From a virus (taxonomy: Duplodnaviria > Caudoviricetes), in IMG/VR virus record IMGVR_UViG_2706795240_000001, positions 1 through 64,000 of that record: DNA of 64,000 nucleotides, one strand, 5' to 3'. The first letter of the stretch is position 1; every line of letters starts with the position of its first letter. The position numbers were made by a program, and so were the translations under genes. The notes beneath the pieces were generated by a model that saw nothing but the letters and a program-made list of their open reading frames with translations, was not told the origin of the DNA and did not search any database. Below are positions 31,495-39,348 of the stretch, one piece after another.

Positions 31495-33216
31495 ATGACA
31501 GCTCCGTGGTACTCCAGAGGCCCGAAGGGCGACAAAGGAGACAAGGGCGATACCGGAACCGGCGTCCAGGGTCCGCCCGGTCCTGCAAACGTGCTCACTG
31601 CTGGCCCGGTAACAACGCTTGCTCCCGGCGAGGATGCAGCTATTGATCTGGTTACTACTAGTCCCGGTAACCAGCGACTTGACGCATCTATTCCACGCGG
31701 GGCAAAGGGTGACAAGGGTGATCAGGGAAATGTCGGTCCGGCTAGCGCGCTCTCGTTGGGCACGACTAATACCGGCGCTCCTGGAACAAATGCCATTGTT
31801 GAATTGAGTGGCAGTGCTCCGTCTCAGGTTATCTCATTCACCATTCCACGAGGCAGCAAGGGTGATCAGGGAAATCAGGGTGATATAGGTCCGGAGGGGC
31901 CGCGAGGCTACGGCTATTTTGCTAATGCAGGTGTGCCAACTGTTACCGAGCCAAGCGGACCGCCTGATGACGACCTTGTCTGGTATCTGGACACCATCAC
32001 TGGTGAATTTTGGATTTGGGTAGAAACCACTCCTGGAACAAAAGCGTGGGTTCATCAGCCAGCTCGCGGAAGCCTAAAGGGCGCAAAGGGTGATCAGGGT
32101 CTCCCCGGCGGGAAGGGGGATAAGGGTGACCAGGGCGATCCTGGACCGGCGAATTCGCTTGCAATTGGAACGGTCACTGGACTTGGAACCGGGGCAACGC
32201 CTACCGCGAGCATTACCGGTGCCGCGCCGTCCCAGACCCTTAATTTGGGACTGCCTGCTGGCCCAAAGGGCGACAAGGGCGATAAGGGCGATCCTGGAGA
32301 CGACGGGGAAGTGTCGGAGGCAATGCTTAACACGGCGGTCAATAATGCTGTGGCGGCATTGGTTGACGGCTCCCCCGCCGCGCTGGACACGCTAAATGAA
32401 TTGGCAGCGGCTTTGGGCGATGATCCAAATTTCGCAACCACCATGACGAACGCTCTTGCGGAAAAGGTCGGGAATACAGACAGCCGCTTGGCCGATAGCC
32501 GGACCCCTACCGACGGCTCGGTTACTCAGGCAAAGTTGGCTCCAAATGGCGGATTTTTCAACAAGCTAAATTTGAGTGATCTTACTGCACCTGGTTACAC
32601 ATTTGGCAAGGGAAATTGGATCGTTGTCGATGACAGTGATCCAAATCCCGCAAATCACTTCATGATGTACATTGTGTATGGAGCAAACCAGGGTGAGTCG
32701 CCTGGAGACGCTTCTGCGCGTGGGATTATGACTCCGGTAATTGTAAACGTAGGCTCTGCGCTTTCGTTTGCCAATGGCACCATTGATGTCTTTGACAGTG
32801 GTATTACCTCTGCCAAGATCAACGGCGGTGCGGTAACAGCGGCCAAGATCGCTGGCGGAGTTCTTCCGATGGACATGTCATTTATTGTGTTCGGCAAGGA
32901 TACAACGCGAGCGGCGGGGACCGGCGATAATCCTTTTGGTCACAAGTTCCAGAGAAACGTAACGGTTCAGTCTGTAACGTTTCGATGCCTAACCGCTGAT
33001 GCCTCTGGAAATCTGGTAGTCGAAATTTGCAAGAACGGAACAGCAGTAAGCGGAACGAATACCACGCTTTCGGCAGCCAATCAGGTTGGCGGGGTTACCA
33101 CCAGTGGCCTGTCTGCAACCTTTTCTGCTGGAGATATCATCACAATTCAGGTAACCGGCGTTGGCACCACTCCTGGCAAGGGTCTGGTCGCAGATATCAA
33201 GGCGGTTGCTTCATGA
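31495..33216 (+). CDS. Collagen-like tail fibre protein
   Basis: GPKGDKGDKG Gly-X-Y runs, three related ~45-aa modules, and the motif LVDGSPAALDTLNELAAALGDDPNFATT. Confidence 0.8.
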   Translation: MTAPWYSRGPKGDKGDKGDTGTGVQGPPGPANVLTAGPVTTLAPGEDAAIDLVTTSPGNQRLDASIPRGAKGDKGDQGNVGPASALSLGTTNTGAPGTNAIVELSGSAPSQVISFTIPRGSKGDQGNQGDIGPEGPRGYGYFANAGVPTVTEPSGPPDDDLVWYLDTITGEFWIWVETTPGTKAWVHQPARGSLKGAKGDQGLPGGKGDKGDQGDPGPANSLAIGTVTGLGTGATPTASITGAAPSQTLNLGLPAGPKGDKGDKGDPGDDGEVSEAMLNTAVNNAVAALVDGSPAALDTLNELAAALGDDPNFATTMTNALAEKVGNTDSRLADSRTPTDGSVTQAKLAPNGGFFNKLNLSDLTAPGYTFGKGNWIVVDDSDPNPANHFMMYIVYGANQGESPGDASARGIMTPVIVNVGSALSFANGTIDVFDSGITSAKINGGAVTAAKIAGGVLPMDMSFIVFGKDTTRAAGTGDNPFGHKFQRNVTVQSVTFRCLTADASGNLVVEICKNGTAVSGTNTTLSAANQVGGVTTSGLSATFSAGDIITIQVTGVGTTPGKGLVADIKAVAS

Positions 33217-33880: not shown

Positions 33881-34582
33881 ATGACAAGAACGCTCATTGA
33901 TTCGGGAGCGCGGATCGAGGCTGCCGGTATCAAGCGCGCTGGTCACGTCGGTTCGTTCGGCTATTTGAGCACGTCCCGACCTGGAACATTTTTCAGCGGG
34001 AAACCCATTCGCCAGGATTGGGTTAACGACATGAATTCTCTTGGACTCATGATTGTTTCGTGCTGGCAATTCGGAAAGAACGCGACTGCCGACTGGCGGC
34101 GCGGATTTAATGGTGGAGTAGCAGATGCAAAAGCCGCAGCACGCAAGCACCGTGAGCTTGGTGGGCCGGATGACGCCCCTATTTATTTCGCTGTTGATGA
34201 CGATGTTAATCTTAGCGATTACCGCCTTTTCGTACGTCCTTACCTTCAAGGGGTTAACTCGGTTATTGGAGTTAATCGAACCGGGGTGTACGGACATGAC
34301 GAATGCGTGACATGGGCCGCTACTGATCAGCTTTTGGGTAAAACCCGCGACGGCTCGGGAAAGACTTTTGGCTGGCAAACGCGCGCATGGTCGGAGGGCG
34401 ATATCTCCCGATATGCCTGTGTCTATCAGCGAATCGTGGATACCGCATCGACACCGGGGCCGCCGATTGACGGCAACCCTACTGACGTGAACGACATGCT
34501 ATGTGACGATATCGGCCAGTGGAATTACGGCGGCGGTAAGTGGAATGACATTCTTACTCAAATGCTCGGAACAAAGGATTGA
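33881..34582 (+). CDS. Lysin A, glycoside hydrolase (DUF1906 / Rv2525c-like) subunit
   Basis: GYLSTSRPG...GKPI, GGVADA...ARKHRELGGP...PIYFAVDDD, TGVYG and WQTRAWS are DUF1906-type motifs. Ends WNDILTQMLGTKD. Confidence 0.85.
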   Translation: MTRTLIDSGARIEAAGIKRAGHVGSFGYLSTSRPGTFFSGKPIRQDWVNDMNSLGLMIVSCWQFGKNATADWRRGFNGGVADAKAAARKHRELGGPDDAPIYFAVDDDVNLSDYRLFVRPYLQGVNSVIGVNRTGVYGHDECVTWAATDQLLGKTRDGSGKTFGWQTRAWSEGDISRYACVYQRIVDTASTPGPPIDGNPTDVNDMLCDDIGQWNYGGGKWNDILTQMLGTKD

Positions 34583-34585
34583 GCA

Positions 34586-34939
34586 ATGCAGTATAAGCAA
34601 TTCATTCTTGACGAACTCATGAGCGATGAACTCGCTGAAAAGGTCGAGAATGACGTAATCGATAATCTGCGCGCTAGCTTGGCGGCGGATGACGACCCGT
34701 CTAACGACGACCATGAAATCCTTATTACGCGGGGCGTCGGCGCTGACGCGAGTGGCCGGACCGGAACCTATATCATCGGCACCGTCGATGCTGAGCCGGA
34801 ACCGTATCCGGAGGTTTCCCGTGAAGAGTATGAGATTTCCGAGGCAAAGCCAACGAAGTATATGGACAACGCTCCGACAGATTTCAACATTGATGATGAT
34901 GGATATCTGACGCACATGCTTGGAAAGGTTCAGGGCTAA
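34586..34939 (+). CDS. Acidic hypothetical protein in lysis cassette
   Basis: 117 aa, tightly coupled on both sides. Ends GYLTHMLGKVQG. Confidence 0.75.
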   Translation: MQYKQFILDELMSDELAEKVENDVIDNLRASLAADDDPSNDDHEILITRGVGADASGRTGTYIIGTVDAEPEPYPEVSREEYEISEAKPTKYMDNAPTDFNIDDDGYLTHMLGKVQG

Positions 34940-35589
34940 TGGCATACGTTAATGGTCCGCAGATGATGCGGGATATTGCCAACATGTGCCATGAGCTTTT
35001 CGGCACTACTATCGTTTACTCGAATGGCTGGGAAACTCGTGGTAATGGTCAGGACTGGGCTTACGGAGGTCCAAAAGGATTTATTGATCATCACACCGCT
35101 GGTGGTAATAACATTTACCTTGACGGCAATCTCATTACGGGTGTTCCCGGCCTCTCAGGTCCTCTCTGCAACTTTGCAGGTCTTTATGACGGCGACCTTG
35201 CTGTGGTTGCTGCGTACCCCGCAAATCACGCGGGCGCTTCGGGAGGCTGGGATACGGCACCTCTGCCGGTAACCGGAATGTTCAACCGAGAAGTTCTTGG
35301 TATTGAAATGCAGTACCGAGGCGTAGAGCCTATGAGTCCTGCTCAGTATCAGACGCTTCTCGCGGTGAACTACTGTGCCGCAAAGGTTCTTAACTGGCCT
35401 AGCTTTAACCGGATTAAGAACCACCAGGGCACCAGTATTCAGGGCAAGTTCGATATGGGTTTTGCCCCCGGTAAGACGTACGATATCGCAGCGATCCGCC
35501 GTGATATCGCAGCAAAGGGCGGTACCGCCGGTACCGACGATAAGCTCTGGAATGACATTCAACTCCAGATGATGGGCACGAAAGGCTAA
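34939..35589 (+). CDS. Lysin A, N-acetylmuramoyl-L-alanine amidase (Amidase_2) subunit
   Basis: HHTAGG, ANHAG, LGIEM and KNH...GKFDMG zinc-amidase motifs. Ends WNDIQLQMMGTKG. Confidence 0.88.
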   Translation: MAYVNGPQMMRDIANMCHELFGTTIVYSNGWETRGNGQDWAYGGPKGFIDHHTAGGNNIYLDGNLITGVPGLSGPLCNFAGLYDGDLAVVAAYPANHAGASGGWDTAPLPVTGMFNREVLGIEMQYRGVEPMSPAQYQTLLAVNYCAAKVLNWPSFNRIKNHQGTSIQGKFDMGFAPGKTYDIAAIRRDIAAKGGTAGTDDKLWNDIQLQMMGTKG

Positions 35590-35592
35590 ACA

Positions 35593-36075
35593 ATGGAAGT
35601 TGAGTGGAGAAAGGTTCCATTTGACTTCGACTATTCCGTTTCGTCAGCAGGTGAATTGCGAAATGATTCAACGGGAAGAATCCTAAAGCCTAGGAAATGT
35701 CGAAGATATAATTCATTTGCTATGCAGAATTCCGGCAGAAGGATGGACATATCTGCACACACGTTGATTGCAATGGTATTTATCGGAGAAAGGCCACCAG
35801 GGTACGATGTGTGCCATAAAAACGGAATACCATCTGATAATAGGGTAGAAAATCTGTATTACGGAACCAAGAGTCAAAATCAACTAGACTCGGTTAGACA
35901 TGGCACACACAGGGGGTCAAGAAAAACCCATTGTCCCAGAAATCATGAATATGATCGGGTAGACGTAAATGGCGCCAGAAGGTGCTCGACTTGTCTCAAG
36001 ATTGCAAATGATAAGTCAAACCTTAAAAAGAAGATGCGAAAACAATCTGAAAGAAGGTCGAAGGAAAATGCCTAG
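35593..36075 (+). CDS. Free-standing NUMOD4-HNH homing endonuclease
   Basis: EWRKVP...YSVSSAGELRN (NUMOD4), HTLIAMVF...VCHKNGIPSDNRVENL (HNH), C-terminal THCPRNH...CSTC. AT-richer than its neighbours. Confidence 0.9.
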   Translation: MEVEWRKVPFDFDYSVSSAGELRNDSTGRILKPRKCRRYNSFAMQNSGRRMDISAHTLIAMVFIGERPPGYDVCHKNGIPSDNRVENLYYGTKSQNQLDSVRHGTHRGSRKTHCPRNHEYDRVDVNGARRCSTCLKIANDKSNLKKKMRKQSERRSKENA

Positions 36076-36415
36076 CGCAGCAGATGACGTGAATACCCAG
36101 TTCATGGGCGACAAAGATAAGAATGGAAAATGGGGCTGGACCGGGCTTGCGCCGCAGCCAGACAATAACGATGTTCGGTATTCGCAGTTTGTCAAGAAGG
36201 TTGTGGATCGACAGACTGTTGTCGAGGCTCTGGGAACTCTGGTTTTCGAGGCCACTTACCGCATTAAGGCCGTGACCGATGTAGCGGAGGCTAAAAAGCG
36301 CGCAGTCGATGCCAAGCGCGGCGAGACCGTTCTAGGTCACGCGGCAGTCGCTTCCGGACTCGCGATCACAAATAACGAACTGCTTAAGCAGATTCTCGCG
36401 GAGGTGAAGAAGTAA
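36068..36415 (+). CDS. Stand-alone putative endolysin cell-wall-binding/oligomerisation protein (115 aa)
   Basis: Start 36068 after AAGGA. QFMG...WGWTGL...TVVEAL...ETVLGHA resembles C-terminal helical domains of actinophage lysins (recalled, not searched). Confidence 0.6.
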   Translation: MPSAADDVNTQFMGDKDKNGKWGWTGLAPQPDNNDVRYSQFVKKVVDRQTVVEALGTLVFEATYRIKAVTDVAEAKKRAVDAKRGETVLGHAAVASGLAITNNELLKQILAEVKK

Positions 36416-36849
36416 TGACTTACGATCCCGCAGATGATCCGCGAATTCCCGACCTGTCCGATGACGCGGTAGTCGGACCGAACCTCTTTAACATTCGCAC
36501 CTGGCGAGATGTTATTGCCATGGTGTACGTCATTGTCCCGCTGGCGTCGGCTTCGCTGGTCGGCTACGGCGTTTTCAGTGACCAAGAGTCTGCCGTTATT
36601 GTCGGTGCGGTTCTTGCCGTGCTCCAGGTGATTCTCCAGTTCACTCGTACCGAGAACGGTGTGCGTCGAGCCTTTTATACGGTTCTTCTTGCGGCCAATG
36701 CCGTACTGGTGTGGTACCGGGTTGTTGATGAAAACTTCCTCACCACCTGGTTGCCCCTGATTAACGCTCTCCTGATCGGTGTACCGGCTTCGGTTGCCGT
36801 CCAGAATGTTAATACTTCTGGCGACGACCTCCGAACCAGCTCTGCATAA
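36415..36849 (+). CDS. Holin
   Basis: 144 aa with about four hydrophobic helices, in the lysis cassette, TAATG-coupled. Confidence 0.8.
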   Translation: MTYDPADDPRIPDLSDDAVVGPNLFNIRTWRDVIAMVYVIVPLASASLVGYGVFSDQESAVIVGAVLAVLQVILQFTRTENGVRRAFYTVLLAANAVLVWYRVVDENFLTTWLPLINALLIGVPASVAVQNVNTSGDDLRTSSA

Positions 36850-36860
36850 ATAAGTAACCC

Positions 36861-36903
36861 AAAAGGGCGTCGTACGGACATTTTACTCGTACGACGCCCT
36901 TTT
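36861..36903. terminator. Intrinsic terminator after holin (A/U-flanked)
   Basis: AAAAGGGCGTCGTACG, 11-nt loop, CGTACGACGCCCTTTT: perfect 16-bp stem including A/U tracts. Confidence 0.85.
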
Positions 36904-36943
36904 GCTAGGGTTTTCATTTAATATTCGGGACGGCGGTAGGAAA

Positions 36944-37429
36944 TTGAGTTACAAAGAAAACTTTGATAAAAAATGGAATAGAAGGAACTCTGGACTATTT
37001 GGGATTAAATACCATCTAGAACCAGATGAGCTTTCATCTAAATCCCAGTCACAAGATACCTTGATGCTGTATGCTACCTGGGGATTTTTGTACGGACTCT
37101 CGCTCATAGTTCAGCCAGACTCGGTGTGGACACTTGGGTACTATGATACCGCTAAATATGTGCCGTACTCTCCAGACTCCTGGGGCGTATTCGCCATAAT
37201 TGGTGGGCTTCTCATATTCATAGGAATGTTCAGCGGACGTGGAATATTTGCCGCAATTGGAGCTGGAGTTCTAGCAATATGGAACTTCTTTTTCGCGTTC
37301 AGTTTTGCGAGAGAGTTCATTAGCGGTTCTGAATACGGCTTTTCTCCAGTTATCACATACGGAATTCTGAGCCTCTGGGGGATAATTCTCGTGACGACGT
37401 ATGGAAAGAATAATGTCAATGCCGTATAA
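36944..37429 (+). CDS. Membrane protein (~4 TM)
   Basis: Hydrophobic helices. Start uncertain: TTG 36944 preferred over track start 36902, which lies inside the terminator. Confidence 0.7.
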   Translation: MSYKENFDKKWNRRNSGLFGIKYHLEPDELSSKSQSQDTLMLYATWGFLYGLSLIVQPDSVWTLGYYDTAKYVPYSPDSWGVFAIIGGLLIFIGMFSGRGIFAAIGAGVLAIWNFFFAFSFAREFISGSEYGFSPVITYGILSLWGIILVTTYGKNNVNAV

Positions 37430-37865
37430 ACAACTCCAGAGGGACGCACGAAATCCCTTTGAGTATGCAATCATCCTGTTTGCTGTGGTTATTTCTACCG
37501 CACAGCTCATATTGGACACATACCCTGGAGCTATCTATGAATTCACCAGTGATGGATATCGGTATGCATGGGGAGGGGCGCTATTTCTAGGCTCTATTTC
37601 CTCTGCCGCCGGAGTCACAATGAAAAGGCACTCGATGGGCGTGGGGCTTGAGTGCTGGGGAATGTATGTAATGGGGGGTGCCCTCGCGGTCTATGGTTTG
37701 TCTATTTTTCTGGTAGGCAATGCAACCGGAATGTTCGCGTCGGGATTCTTTTTCACATTCGCAGTTGCATGTATTGTTCGTGCGTTTATAATCCACCGTG
37801 GATTGCGACGCATAGCGAAGGGTCAATACGTTCGACTCAGGGAAGCAGAGAGAAATGAGAAATGA
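37413..37865 (+). CDS. Membrane protein (~4 TM)
   Basis: RDARNPFEYAIILF... with four hydrophobic segments. Confidence 0.75.
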   Translation: MSMPYKQLQRDARNPFEYAIILFAVVISTAQLILDTYPGAIYEFTSDGYRYAWGGALFLGSISSAAGVTMKRHSMGVGLECWGMYVMGGALAVYGLSIFLVGNATGMFASGFFFTFAVACIVRAFIIHRGLRRIAKGQYVRLREAERNEK

Positions 37866-38239
37866 ACCTAGACGAAGCTCAATTCTGGGTACAGCTTGCA
37901 GTCACTCTCCTGTCGACCGGTGGACTATTTGGCGGATATAAAATCTGGAGTGATCGCAAGAAAGCTGATGCAGAAGTAAACAAAGAGGATGCATCCGCAG
38001 CAGATATTATCCAAGGGTCAGCCGCTCGTGAAATTCAGCGAATTAACGAGACCATGGAAAAAATGCGCAAGGAGTCCCTGATACGCAAGCGCGCAGGAGC
38101 AAAGCTGTATTATCATCAGCGATCGCATGAACGCTGGGACCTTGAAATGATGACCAAGCTGCGAGAGCTTGGCATCAGCGTCGATGAACCTCCACGCATT
38201 CTCCTGAGTGTCGAGGAACTAGACGCCCTCGAAATTTAG
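37862..38239 (+). CDS. Single-TM protein with C-terminal coiled coil
   Basis: N-terminal LAVTLLSTGGLFGG then a charged helix. ATGA overlap. Confidence 0.75.
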   Translation: MNLDEAQFWVQLAVTLLSTGGLFGGYKIWSDRKKADAEVNKEDASAADIIQGSAAREIQRINETMEKMRKESLIRKRAGAKLYYHQRSHERWDLEMMTKLRELGISVDEPPRILLSVEELDALEI

Positions 38240-38248
38240 GATATTGTC

Positions 38249-38593
38249 ATGACAGCACCGTCAGTTTATCAGCCTATTCGATTGGTAAATATTCCGATAG
38301 ATAAAGGTGTAGGATTTTACTGGGACTTCAAGGATGACAGCATACCTGGTGACGCGCTAGTTATGATGAGGGTATCGTCCAGGATGAATTTCAAGGGCGA
38401 GAGAACGTATTCCATCTGGACGGCGCACAGAAATCCACTGACTAGATTTTGGGAATTTGATGTACCAGAAGAAGACGTTCTCGCCGCCGATGTAGTGCAA
38501 GGGTCCGTCTACCGGCTGTACCGACAGGACGACCGCACGGATAGCCGGACACGAAAGATAATCCCTCAAGCCGGGAGGCTGGTGTTTAGATGA
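38249..38593 (+). CDS. Hypothetical protein
   Basis: 114-aa ORF coupled to lysin B. Confidence 0.65.
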   Translation: MTAPSVYQPIRLVNIPIDKGVGFYWDFKDDSIPGDALVMMRVSSRMNFKGERTYSIWTAHRNPLTRFWEFDVPEEDVLAADVVQGSVYRLYRQDDRTDSRTRKIIPQAGRLVFR

Positions 38594-39348
38594 GTAAGCC
38601 ACTCGTTATTCTGTGCCGAGGAATCGGCGAGACGTATGGTCGCGGAATTCTTTGGAATCTAGCGCAATATCTTCCAGTGGAAGAATACGATATCATCGAA
38701 GCGAATTGGAAGGCCGAATATGGCCCGGTTCCGTCGATCGGTGGCTATTCGTTTGAAAAGTCACTAGAAGATGGTAAATCCCTTTTGTTAGACCTATGCC
38801 TGACTGAGCACCGAGACAGGGGGATTGTCCTGGTGGGCTACAGCGGCGGCGCTCAGCTCGCAGGCGACGTGCTGGCCGACCTGGCGGCTCGCGGCCACTC
38901 GAACGTGCTCGGCGGCGCACTGCTGTCTGATCCGAGTATGCCCAAGGGGATGCCGGGAACGGGCGGACGCTACGGAATTCGCGGTAGTCGGCAGATCAAA
39001 GAATCAATCCCGGTTCAGTGGTTTTACGAAATCGAGGACGTGATTGCGGTATGCACACCTGCGCCGGATTCGTTGCTGAGGGTTTTCGCAGATGCATCGG
39101 CAGAATTCTCGCTTGGAGGCCCCCGAGCATGGCAGGGGATAATTCCACGATTGCTGAGCAAAAAGCTACAGGCATACGTTCTACCGTGGTGGAACTTTCA
39201 GAAGTTTTTGAGACAATACAACGTCGCCAAATATGAAGCAGAGGGTTATCTGTTCCGTGGCGATCATACTAGCTATACTGTTCGTAAGAATTGGAATGGC
39301 AAAGCATACTTTGAGGATATGGCAGACTGGATTAAGAGTCTTGCTTAG
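38590..39348 (+). CDS. lysB: Lysin B (cutinase-like esterase)
   Basis: LCRGIGE, nucleophile elbow GYSGGA, LLSDP, EDVIA (Asp) and GDHTSY (His). Confidence 0.85.
   Translation: MSKPLVILCRGIGETYGRGILWNLAQYLPVEEYDIIEANWKAEYGPVPSIGGYSFEKSLEDGKSLLLDLCLTEHRDRGIVLVGYSGGAQLAGDVLADLAARGHSNVLGGALLSDPSMPKGMPGTGGRYGIRGSRQIKESIPVQWFYEIEDVIAVCTPAPDSLLRVFADASAEFSLGGPRAWQGIIPRLLSKKLQAYVLPWWNFQKFLRQYNVAKYEAEGYLFRGDHTSYTVRKNWNGKAYFEDMADWIKSLA

What the first reader, a model, noticed from the sequence alone, without database searches (positions are those of the whole stretch)
33881..36415. Candidate multi-subunit 'docking' endolysin: two catalytic lysins end with the motif that begins a stand-alone binding protein
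Seen: the DUF1906 glycosidase ends WNDILTQMLGTKD (34541-34579) and the amidase ends WNDIQLQMMGTKG (35548-35586). They share 9 of 13 residues and 13 identical nt (TGGAATGACATTC), although the enzymes are otherwise unrelated and neither has a cell-wall-binding domain. A separate 115-aa gene starts with ADDVNTQFMGDKD (36080-36118; 6 of 13 identical to the glycosidase tail). It continues with sequence recalling the helical C-terminal domain of one-piece actinophage lysins. Established: PlyC and the CD27L/Lys170-type endolysins are hetero-oligomers of catalytic and binding subunits, and split lysin A genes are known in Gordonia phages. Inference: each enzyme plugs into an oligomeric binding hub through a shared amphipathic helix, giving a mix-and-match lysin complex. 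I do not know of such a shared-tag system being described.
Basis: partly seen in the sequence, partly recalled or inferred. Interest (0 to 1): 0.85.

Follow-up and report, generated by a model that had tools for sequence, protein, structure and literature searches.

The report
Shared helix tag on split lysins
In this Gordonia-type phage, and in every related split-lysin phage examined, each cell-wall enzyme that lacks a binding domain ends in a short conserved helix copying the first helix of the separately encoded C-terminal domain, which probably lets several enzymes share one targeting module, though binding itself is untested.

Summary
The window is the lysis cassette of a 77.8-kb Gordonia-type actinophage. 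Its genes in order are an Rv2525c-like glycosidase, a small acidic protein, an Amidase_2 enzyme, an HNH endonuclease, a 115-aa stand-alone C-terminal domain (CTD), a holin, and further on LysB.

- **Tail motif.** Both enzymes stop 3 residues after a W-x2-phi-x2-Q-phi-phi-G helix. This helix is a longer version of helix 1 of the CTD.
- **Spread.** I examined 23 loci (isolated phages and metagenome contigs). All 36 catalytic subunits without a CTD carry this tail or a close variant. They belong to four unrelated enzyme families.
- **Partner.** In every case the partner CTD is either a free gene or fused to another lysin.
- **Controls.** One-piece lysins and a bacterial homologue of the glycosidase lack the tail.
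- **Covariation.** Tails within one genome resemble each other more than tails across genomes (p about 0.001). In two divergent lineages the near-invariant Q changes in both the tails and the CTD head.
- **Fused CTDs.** All ten examined have a Shine-Dalgarno-like site plus an in-frame start codon just before helix 1, so free CTD is probably always made.
- **HNH gene.** It is a recent insertion, not the cause of the split.

I found no description of such a tag in the literature searched.

The parts
33881..34582 (+). Lysin A subunit 1: Rv2525c-like glycoside hydrolase, 233 aa, no binding domain
   Evidence: PF08924 E 8e-36, residues 17-194. phrog_13480 endolysin E 3.8e-120.
34541..34579 (+). Orphan helix-1 tail of the glycosidase (W-x2-phi-x2-Q-phi-phi-G plus 3 residues, then stop)
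   Evidence: Conserved in phage homologues and absent from bacterial ones.
34586..34939 (+). Small acidic protein, 117 aa: globular core, flexible linker, terminal helix ending Y-L-T-H-M-L-G-K-V-Q-G
   Evidence: phrog_18568. Always sits just upstream of this amidase type. AF2 model pLDDT 82, core residues 1-75, helix 105-116. Only D36, H110 and K114 are invariant.
34939..35589 (+). Lysin A subunit 2: N-acetylmuramoyl-L-alanine amidase, 216 aa, no binding domain
   Evidence: PF01510. phrog_880 endolysin E 1.2e-44.
35548..35586 (+). Orphan helix-1 tail of the amidase
   Evidence: W204 is kept in 31/35, Q210 in 34/35 and G213 in 35/35 sequences, after a linker that varies in length and sequence.
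35593..36075 (+). NUMOD4-HNH homing endonuclease, a recent insertion at the start codon of the CTD gene
   Evidence: PF13392 and PF07463. Absent from a relative whose amidase is 98.8% identical in DNA. The first 60 nt of the CTD gene are only 63-70% identical between the two, while the flanks are 100% identical.
36068..36415 (+). Stand-alone C-terminal domain (CTD), 115 aa. Its head (36080-36118) is a short helix 1 with the same Q and G as the tails.
   Evidence: phrog_18341 and phrog_6985 C-terminus. 25 stand-alone homologues aligned. AF2 model pLDDT 75 with helices 4-13, 51-63, 72-80 and 88-114. No Pfam or PDB relative.
36415..36849 (+). Holin
   Evidence: PF23809 Phage_holin_9 and phrog_565.
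38590..39348 (+). Lysin B (cutinase-like esterase); has no tail motif
   Evidence: phrog_102 E 2.7e-44 and weak Cutinase hit. Its C-terminus was read.

Best explanation
This is a split, multi-subunit lysin A. The glycosidase and the amidase have no wall-targeting domain of their own. Each carries, after a flexible linker, a helix of about 10 residues (large aromatic, two hydrophobic positions, an invariant Q, a capping G) that mimics helix 1 of the C-terminal domain (CTD). The CTD is made as a free protein.

The most likely mechanism is that the tail helix occupies the site that helix 1 normally occupies, either on the CTD body or among CTD helices in an oligomer. Each enzyme would then be joined non-covalently to the shared CTD, and one targeting module would serve several catalytic modules.

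**Shown here**
- The anatomy of the cassette.
- Conservation of the tail.
- Strict co-occurrence of tails with a CTD.
- Concerted variation of tails within genomes.
- Start-site signals for free CTD in fused relatives.

**Inferred**
- That tail and CTD touch.
- The stoichiometry of any complex.
- That the CTD binds the cell envelope.
For: 1. **Universality.** All 36 CTD-less catalytic subunits in 23 loci carry the tail. 33 fit one pattern and 3 are close variants. They belong to four unrelated families: PF08924, PF01510, PF13539 and PF13810.
2. **Island of conservation.** Among 43 short amidase homologues, 39 match the strict motif and 4 have a W-x2-I-L-type variant. All stop 0-4 residues after the G. 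The preceding linker varies in length and sequence.
3. **Specific link to the CTD.**
   - Every tail-bearing locus encodes a CTD, either free or fused to another lysin.
   - A bacterial Rv2525c homologue ends at the end of the catalytic domain with no tail.
   - A one-piece lysin with LGFP repeats has no tail after the same glycosidase domain.
   - The single-lysin phages ReqiDocB7 and GuyFagieri have a fused CTD and no orphan tail in the region read.
4. **Same key residues.** The tail keeps the residues that are conserved in CTD helix 1: Q11 is nearly invariant and G14 invariant in 25 CTDs.
5. **Concerted change.**
   - Glycosidase and amidase tails from the same genome share 6.0 of 11 positions, against 4.6 across genomes (permutation p 0.0009). 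Codon identity at shared residues is 22/40 within genomes against 116/265 across, so there is no clear excess.
   - Tail versus own CTD head: 1.63 against 1.19 of 7 variable positions, p 0.004.
   - In L032 both tails and the CTD head have E instead of Q.
   - In L025 both tails and the head have lost Q.
6. **Free CTD seems to be needed everywhere.** All 10 fused lysins have an in-frame ATG or GTG 6-10 codons before the Q, preceded by a GGAGG-like site. This start corresponds to the N-terminus of the stand-alone CTDs.
7. **Co-transcription.** The genes are packed tightly with no promoter-like site between them.
Against: - No direct test of binding was possible.
- The free CTD keeps its own helix 1, so a tail must displace it, swap with it or bundle with it. 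None of these is shown.
- Covariation between tail and CTD head is weak once the residues after the G are left out (p 0.05). Those residues may be shaped by the ribosome-binding site of the next gene.
- Covariation of the Q position rests on two lineages whose CTD homology is only moderate (hhalign probability 51-53%).
- One case looks discordant: a tail with E alongside a CTD head with Q, assigned to the same contig only by matching contig length.
- The loci are phylogenetically related, so the permutation p values are not exact probabilities.
- Wall binding by the CTD has never been demonstrated.
Confidence: 0.55

Rival explanations
1. The tail is functional but does not bind the CTD. It might bind another shared partner (the small acidic protein, a holin or a host factor). 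It might contact the membrane or the wall directly, or regulate each enzyme by folding back on it.
For: - It is a short amphipathic helix on a flexible linker, conserved under selection.
- The small acidic protein has the same domain-linker-terminal-helix layout, and its tail holds two of its three invariant residues. A common third partner for all terminal helices is therefore conceivable.
Against: - The only component present in every tail-bearing locus is the CTD.
- Perlina, NC1, Yvonnetastic and L031 have tails but no small acidic protein.
- This rival does not explain why the tail keeps exactly the residues conserved in CTD helix 1.
- It also does not explain why tails and CTD head change together in L032.
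Confidence: 0.2
2. The tails are inert relics. They would be leftovers of repeated truncation of enzyme-CTD fusions, or a conserved junction that only serves recombinational shuffling of modules.
For: - Helix 1 marks the module boundary in all fused lysins.
- Lysin modules are clearly shuffled among these phages.
- Tails resemble the local CTD head slightly more than foreign ones, as recent local origin would predict.
Against: - An inert relic would decay or vary in length. Instead W, Q and G are kept in homologues only 45-60% identical, and the stop codon always lies 0-4 residues after the G.
- The tails have a conserved aromatic turn that the CTD heads of this family lack, so they are not simple copies.
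- Conservation is at the protein level, not the DNA level. Codon identity is 55% within genomes against 44% across, which argues against a recombination signal.
Confidence: 0.08
3. The tail is shaped by overlapping translation signals. Its last codons would provide the ribosome-binding site of the downstream gene.
For: The codons after the G contain AAGGA or GAAAGG 7-9 nt before the next start codon. The residues after the G are the part that co-varies most with the CTD head.
Against: This can only constrain the last 2-4 residues. It cannot explain the W-x5-Q-x2-G core, which is conserved with varied codons and before different downstream genes.
Confidence: 0.03
4. The HNH endonuclease (or an intron carrying it) split a one-piece amidase-CTD lysin, and the duplicated motif is a by-product of that event.
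For: The HNH gene lies exactly between the amidase and the CTD. Endonuclease-fractured genes are known in other phages (established knowledge; not checked here).
Against: - A relative with 98.8% identical amidase DNA has no HNH gene, and there the amidase stop is followed 3 nt later by the CTD start.
- Camerico, L014, L015 and L016 have the same split without an HNH gene, and Jumbo and Gmala1 have unrelated small ORFs at that position.
- The glycosidase carries the same tail with no endonuclease nearby.
- No intron-like RNA family was found.
Confidence: 0.02

Closest known systems
PlyC of streptococcal phage C1 (PlyCA catalytic subunit plus eight PlyCB binding subunits, encoded by separate genes)
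   Same: Catalytic and putative binding functions lie on separate genes of one lysis operon (PMC7098653). In C1-like phages an intervening gene, lil, sits between the two genes (PMC10241823), just as the HNH gene does here. The proposed assembly is non-covalent.
   Different: There is no sequence or fold relation to PlyCA or PlyCB. Here two or three different enzymes would share the binding subunit through a terminal tag of about 10 residues, which copies the binding domain's own first helix. Complex formation is not shown.
Two-polypeptide endolysins from one gene: Lys170, LysIME-EF1, CTP1L, CD27L (an internal start yields free binding domain that oligomerises with the full-length enzyme)
   Same: Fused relatives of this CTD have a Shine-Dalgarno-like site and an in-frame start exactly at the domain boundary, in 10 of 10 cases. 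This matches the internal RBS plus Met described for LysIME-EF1 and 36 related lysins (PMC7098653; PMC9430671).
   Different: In the window the CTD is a gene of its own, not an internal product. The known systems join identical binding domains to each other. None is reported to recruit a second, domain-less enzyme through a helix tag.
Split lysin A genes of Gordonia phages (SEA-PHAGES annotations; Pope et al. 2017; Pollenz et al. 2022)
   Same: This window is one of them. It has adjacent genes that each hold one catalytic domain (PMC5559632; PMC9671378).
   Different: Those papers state that the contribution of split genes is unknown. In the passages I read, they mention neither the shared terminal motif nor the stand-alone CTD. 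In Jumbo and Gmala1 the CTD is annotated as 'peptidase', apparently by transfer from M23-CTD fusions.

Membership tests
Split lysin A system of Gordonia-group actinophages | Two or more adjacent lysis genes, each with a single peptidoglycan-hydrolase domain | tested here: met
   PF08924 glycosidase and PF01510 amidase lie on separate genes next to a holin and LysB. The cassette is syntenic with Jumbo, Gmala1 and Camerico.
CTD family (phrog_18341; C-terminal part of phrog_6985 lysins) | Sequence match over the whole domain, with conserved Q-x2-G ... G-W ... E-x-T-x-R ... T-x2-G | tested here: met
   E 7e-60 and 2.7e-23. Invariant columns G14, G23, W24, L27, E61, R65, T87 and G90 in 25 sequences.
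PlyC-type multi-subunit endolysin | Catalytic and binding subunits encoded by separate genes in one operon | tested here: met
   Gene order and tight spacing; no promoter-like site in the region.
PlyC-type multi-subunit endolysin | Stable physical complex of the catalytic subunit with an oligomer of the binding subunit | not testable with these tools
No solved relative exists to infer an oligomeric state.
PlyC-type multi-subunit endolysin | Homology to PlyCA or PlyCB | tested here: not met
   The profile of 25 CTDs has no significant hit in PDB sequences (best E 0.59). There are no Pfam hits.
Internal-start two-polypeptide endolysins (Lys170, LysIME-EF1, CTP1L) | In-frame internal RBS and start codon at the linker before the binding domain of a fused lysin | tested here: not met
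   In the window the CTD is a separate gene. The signal is present in 10 of 10 fused relatives, but only as a sequence signal.
Cell-wall-binding domain | Relation to a known binding fold (LGFP, PG_binding_1, LysM, SH3, CW_7) or demonstrated wall binding | tested here: inconclusive
   No Pfam, PDB-sequence or fold match was found: Foldseek best E 4.7, VIA best Z 5.0 on the last helices only. Its position at the C-terminus of one-piece lysins is the only argument.
Group I intron or homing-endonuclease-fractured gene | The split coincides with the endonuclease or intron, and intron RNA is present | tested here: not met
   HNH-less relatives have the same split. No intron family was found.

The most novel reading that the evidence does not exclude
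Actinophages of the mycolata (Gordonia, Rhodococcus, Nocardia, Tsukamurella) may use a natural tag-and-receptor system. A transferable helix of about 10 residues, a mimic of helix 1 of a lysin C-terminal domain, would plug any catalytic module (glycosidase, amidase, M15 peptidase, DUF4185 arabinanase-family enzyme) non-covalently into a shared, separately translated targeting domain. The result would be multi-enzyme lysin complexes whose composition is reshuffled by moving only the tag.
Probability: 0.5. Interest if true: 0.8.

Novelty: new variant of a known kind. Interest (0 to 1): 0.68.

Why it matters
- **An answer to an open question.** Split lysin A genes are common in Gordonia phages, and the literature says their role is unknown. 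A shared docking tag would explain how enzymes without a binding domain are targeted. It would also explain why the split architecture is stable across many lineages.
- **A third route to multimeric endolysins.** The known routes are PlyC (separate genes, ring of binding subunits) and Lys170-type lysins (internal start). The difference here is that several different enzymes would share one binding module.
- **A practical use.** A 10-residue tag that attaches arbitrary enzymes to a wall-targeting domain would be a ready-made tool for engineering lysins against mycolic-acid bacteria.
- **A hint beyond peptidoglycan.** DUF4185 (D-arabinan-degrading family) enzymes sit in the same tagged system, so the complex may attack arabinogalactan as well as peptidoglycan.

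Tried and rejected
No structural test of docking exists here.
- **Relatives of the CTD.**
  - Pfam: nothing.
  - PDB sequence profile: nothing significant.
  - Foldseek against PDB: best E 4.7.
  - VIA wide: best Z 5.0, covering only the terminal helices.
  - ESM Atlas: nothing usable.
  - A precomputed label, PF27131, on one homologue is not in the local Pfam and appears in no paper.
- **Single-sequence search of 1.8 billion representatives** found only 12 relatives.
- **Prophage search** in 185,579 species genomes found no CTD. IMG/VR added only one new locus.
- **Small acidic protein.** No PDB sequence match, no fold match and no Atlas match.
- **Gene conversion between the two tails** is not supported. 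Codon identity is 22/40 within genomes against 116/265 across.
- **Intron or splicing explanation** is rejected.
- **Frameshift or readthrough** joining the enzymes to the CTD was considered and dropped. The genes between enzyme and CTD differ from phage to phage, and in Woes-type phages the CTD lies at the end of another enzyme.
- **Literature searches** for a described shared tag found none. The library does not hold most subscription-journal papers.
It was redone from locus coordinates.
Full report
**What is there.** The window belongs to a 77,779-bp phage genome. Its closest isolated relatives are the Gordonia phages Jumbo, Camerico and Gmala1; the glycosidase and the CTD are about 60-70% identical in protein, and the amidase up to 83%. 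Positions 33881-39348 form a tightly packed rightward lysis cassette:

| Coordinates | Gene |
|---|---|
| 33881-34582 | Rv2525c-like glycoside hydrolase (PF08924) |
| 34586-34939 | 117-aa acidic protein |
| 34939-35589 | Amidase_2 enzyme |
| 35593-36075 | NUMOD4-HNH endonuclease |
| 36068-36415 | 115-aa protein with no Pfam family |
| 36415-36849 | Holin (Phage_holin_9) |
| between 36849 and 38590 | Three ORFs, two of them matching PHROG membrane-protein families |
| 38590-39348 | LysB |

No promoter-like site lies inside the cassette.

**The observation.**
- Both enzymes end 3 residues after a W-N-D-I-x-x-Q-M-x-G helix.
- The 115-aa protein begins with a shorter version, D-D-V-N-T-Q-F-M-G.
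- A loose form of the motif occurs only three times in all six frames of the genome. Two of these are the tails, each just before a stop codon.
- The 13 shared nucleotides add nothing beyond the four shared residues.

**What the 115-aa protein is.**
- It matches phrog_18341 over its full length. It also matches the C-terminal 100 residues of one-piece or two-piece lysin A proteins.
- By tblastn it is found in 118 phage records from Gordonia, Rhodococcus, Tsukamurella and Nocardia. There it is free or fused behind M23, GH19 or amidase domains.
- I call it the CTD. An AF2 model from 25 stand-alone homologues (pLDDT 75) has helix 1 at residues 4-13, a G-W-containing irregular stretch, and three further helices.
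- It has no relative among solved structures, so wall binding is assumed only from its position in lysins.
- Jumbo and Gmala1 annotate it as 'peptidase'. This appears to be a label carried over from M23-CTD fusions.

**The tail is general.** I read the lysis cassettes of 23 loci: isolated phages from four host genera plus soil and other metagenome contigs.
- All 36 catalytic subunits that lack a CTD end with the same helix or a close variant.
- The subunits belong to four unrelated families:
  - the PF08924 glycosidase;
  - Amidase_2;
  - an M15_4 peptidase in Yvonnetastic;
  - a DUF4185 enzyme in L032.
- In an unselected list of 43 short amidase homologues, 39 fit the strict pattern and the other 4 have a W-x2-I-L-type variant. 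The stop codon lies 0-4 residues after the G.
- In the alignment the linker before the tail varies in length and sequence. Then W (31/35), Q (34/35) and G (35/35) stand out.

**The tail goes with the CTD.**
- Each tail-bearing locus encodes a CTD.
- A bacterial chromosomal homologue of the glycosidase stops at the end of the catalytic domain.
- The one-piece Bibwit lysin continues from that domain into an amidase and LGFP repeats, with no helix in between.
- Phages with a single amidase-CTD lysin show no orphan tail.
- Across lineages the roles are swapped freely. DUF4185 carries the CTD in L025 but a tail in L032. The amidase carries a tail in the window but a CTD in Perlina and NC1.

**Signs of coupling.**
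- The tail keeps the same Q and G that are conserved in CTD helix 1.
- The two tails of one genome are more alike than tails from different genomes: 6.0 against 4.6 of 11 positions, permutation p 0.0009. There is no clear excess of identical codons. Under independent evolution of two old paralogous segments these values should be equal.
- Tails also resemble their own CTD head slightly more than foreign heads (p 0.004). Most of this comes from the residues after the G, and for the helix positions alone p is 0.05.
- In L032 both tails and the head carry E in place of Q. In L025 all three have lost Q.
- Caveats:
  - The CTD homology in these two loci is moderate (hhalign probability 51-53%).
  - One pair looks discordant, and it is linked only by equal contig length.
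  - The loci are not phylogenetically independent.

**Free CTD seems to be the rule.** In all ten fused lysins examined, an in-frame ATG or GTG lies 6-10 codons before the Q. A GGAGG-like site sits 5-9 nt upstream of it, and the glycine- and glutamate-rich linker encodes that site. The predicted product starts exactly where the stand-alone CTDs start. This mirrors the internal RBS and Met of LysIME-EF1-type lysins, whose free binding domains form a tetramer with the full-length enzyme (PMC7098653; PMC9430671). Here it is a sequence signal only. Many CTDs also end in a helix with 3-4 hydrophobic spacing. That is compatible with oligomerisation but does not prove it.

**Most likely mechanism.** The tail is a mimic of helix 1. 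It attaches enzymes without a binding domain to the CTD, either by replacing or swapping with the CTD's own shorter helix 1 or by joining a bundle of such helices in a CTD oligomer. I put this at 0.55. The rivals are:
- a tail with another partner or an autonomous role (0.2);
- an inert relic or recombination junction (0.08), which conflicts with protein-level conservation and the fixed stop position;
- overlap with translation signals (0.03), which can explain only the last few residues;
- a split caused by the HNH gene (0.02), which is refuted.

**The HNH gene.** A metagenomic relative (L023) has amidase DNA 98.8% identical to the window's and lacks the HNH gene. There the amidase stop is followed 3 nt later by the CTD start. 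In the window the endonuclease uses that same ATG and supplies a new ribosome-binding site and start for the CTD. The first 60 nt of the CTD gene are only 63-70% identical between the two phages, while the sequence on either side is 100% identical. This is the usual mark of a recoded homing site. No intron-like RNA was found.

**Comparison with known systems and novelty.**
- The system works like PlyC in having separate catalytic and binding genes. It works like Lys170-type lysins in making extra free binding domain. It is homologous to neither.
- Split lysin A genes are known, and their role is stated to be unknown (PMC9671378; PMC5559632).
- I found no paper describing a shared terminal tag, within the limits of the library.
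- I class it as a new variant of a known kind. The comparative evidence is strong, but binding remains to be shown.

Noticed in passing
window 34586-34939: The small acidic protein always sits just upstream of this amidase type, in the window, Jumbo, Gmala1, Camerico, Woes, Monty, TIN2, Katyusha, L009-L016, L025 and L032. Its model has a confident beta-alpha-beta-beta core (residues 1-75), a floppy linker and a terminal helix (105-116). Two of its three invariant residues (H110, K114) lie in that helix. It may be a further client, a competitor or a chaperone of the same system. No fold match was found.
   Followed up: partly
window 35593-36130, compared with L023 3440-3560: The HNH gene took over the original start codon of the CTD gene and brought a new ribosome-binding site and ATG for it. 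The 60 nt right after the insertion, which code for the CTD head motif, are 63-70% identical to the HNH-less relative, while the flanks are 100% identical. This suggests that the homing site lies in the motif-coding DNA.
   Followed up: partly
L004, L005, L006, L007, L008, L017, L018, L019, L020, L031 (linker before the CTD in fused lysins): All ten fused lysins have a GGAGG-like site 5-9 nt before an in-frame ATG or GTG at the CTD boundary. These are candidate internal translation starts giving free CTD, as in Lys170-type lysins.
   Followed up: partly
L025 4639-6063; L032 5193-6332: DUF4185 proteins belong to a family shown to degrade mycobacterial D-arabinan (PMC10115798). They are part of these lysis cassettes: one is fused to a divergent CTD and the other ends in an orphan tail. 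They are possible arabinogalactan-cleaving lysis enzymes of phages.
   Followed up: partly
window 34568-34588 and 35575-35595: The last codons of each tail contain AAGGA or GAAAGG 7-9 nt before the next gene's ATG. The residues after the conserved G probably double as the downstream ribosome-binding site.
   Followed up: no
L001 6871-7242 (Jumbo gp32); L002 3992-4360 (Gmala1 gp26): The stand-alone CTD is annotated as 'peptidase' or 'lysin A, peptidase domain' in public records. It has no peptidase domain, so the label seems to have been inherited from M23-CTD fusion proteins.
   Followed up: yes
window 31495-33216: A 573-aa protein just upstream of the lysis cassette has long collagen-like G-x-y repeats (K-G-D-K-G-D type). 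It is presumably a tail fibre.
   Followed up: no
window around 40000: GC skew and AT skew change sign near 40 kb. This fits the switch from rightward structural and lysis genes to leftward genes.
   Followed up: no
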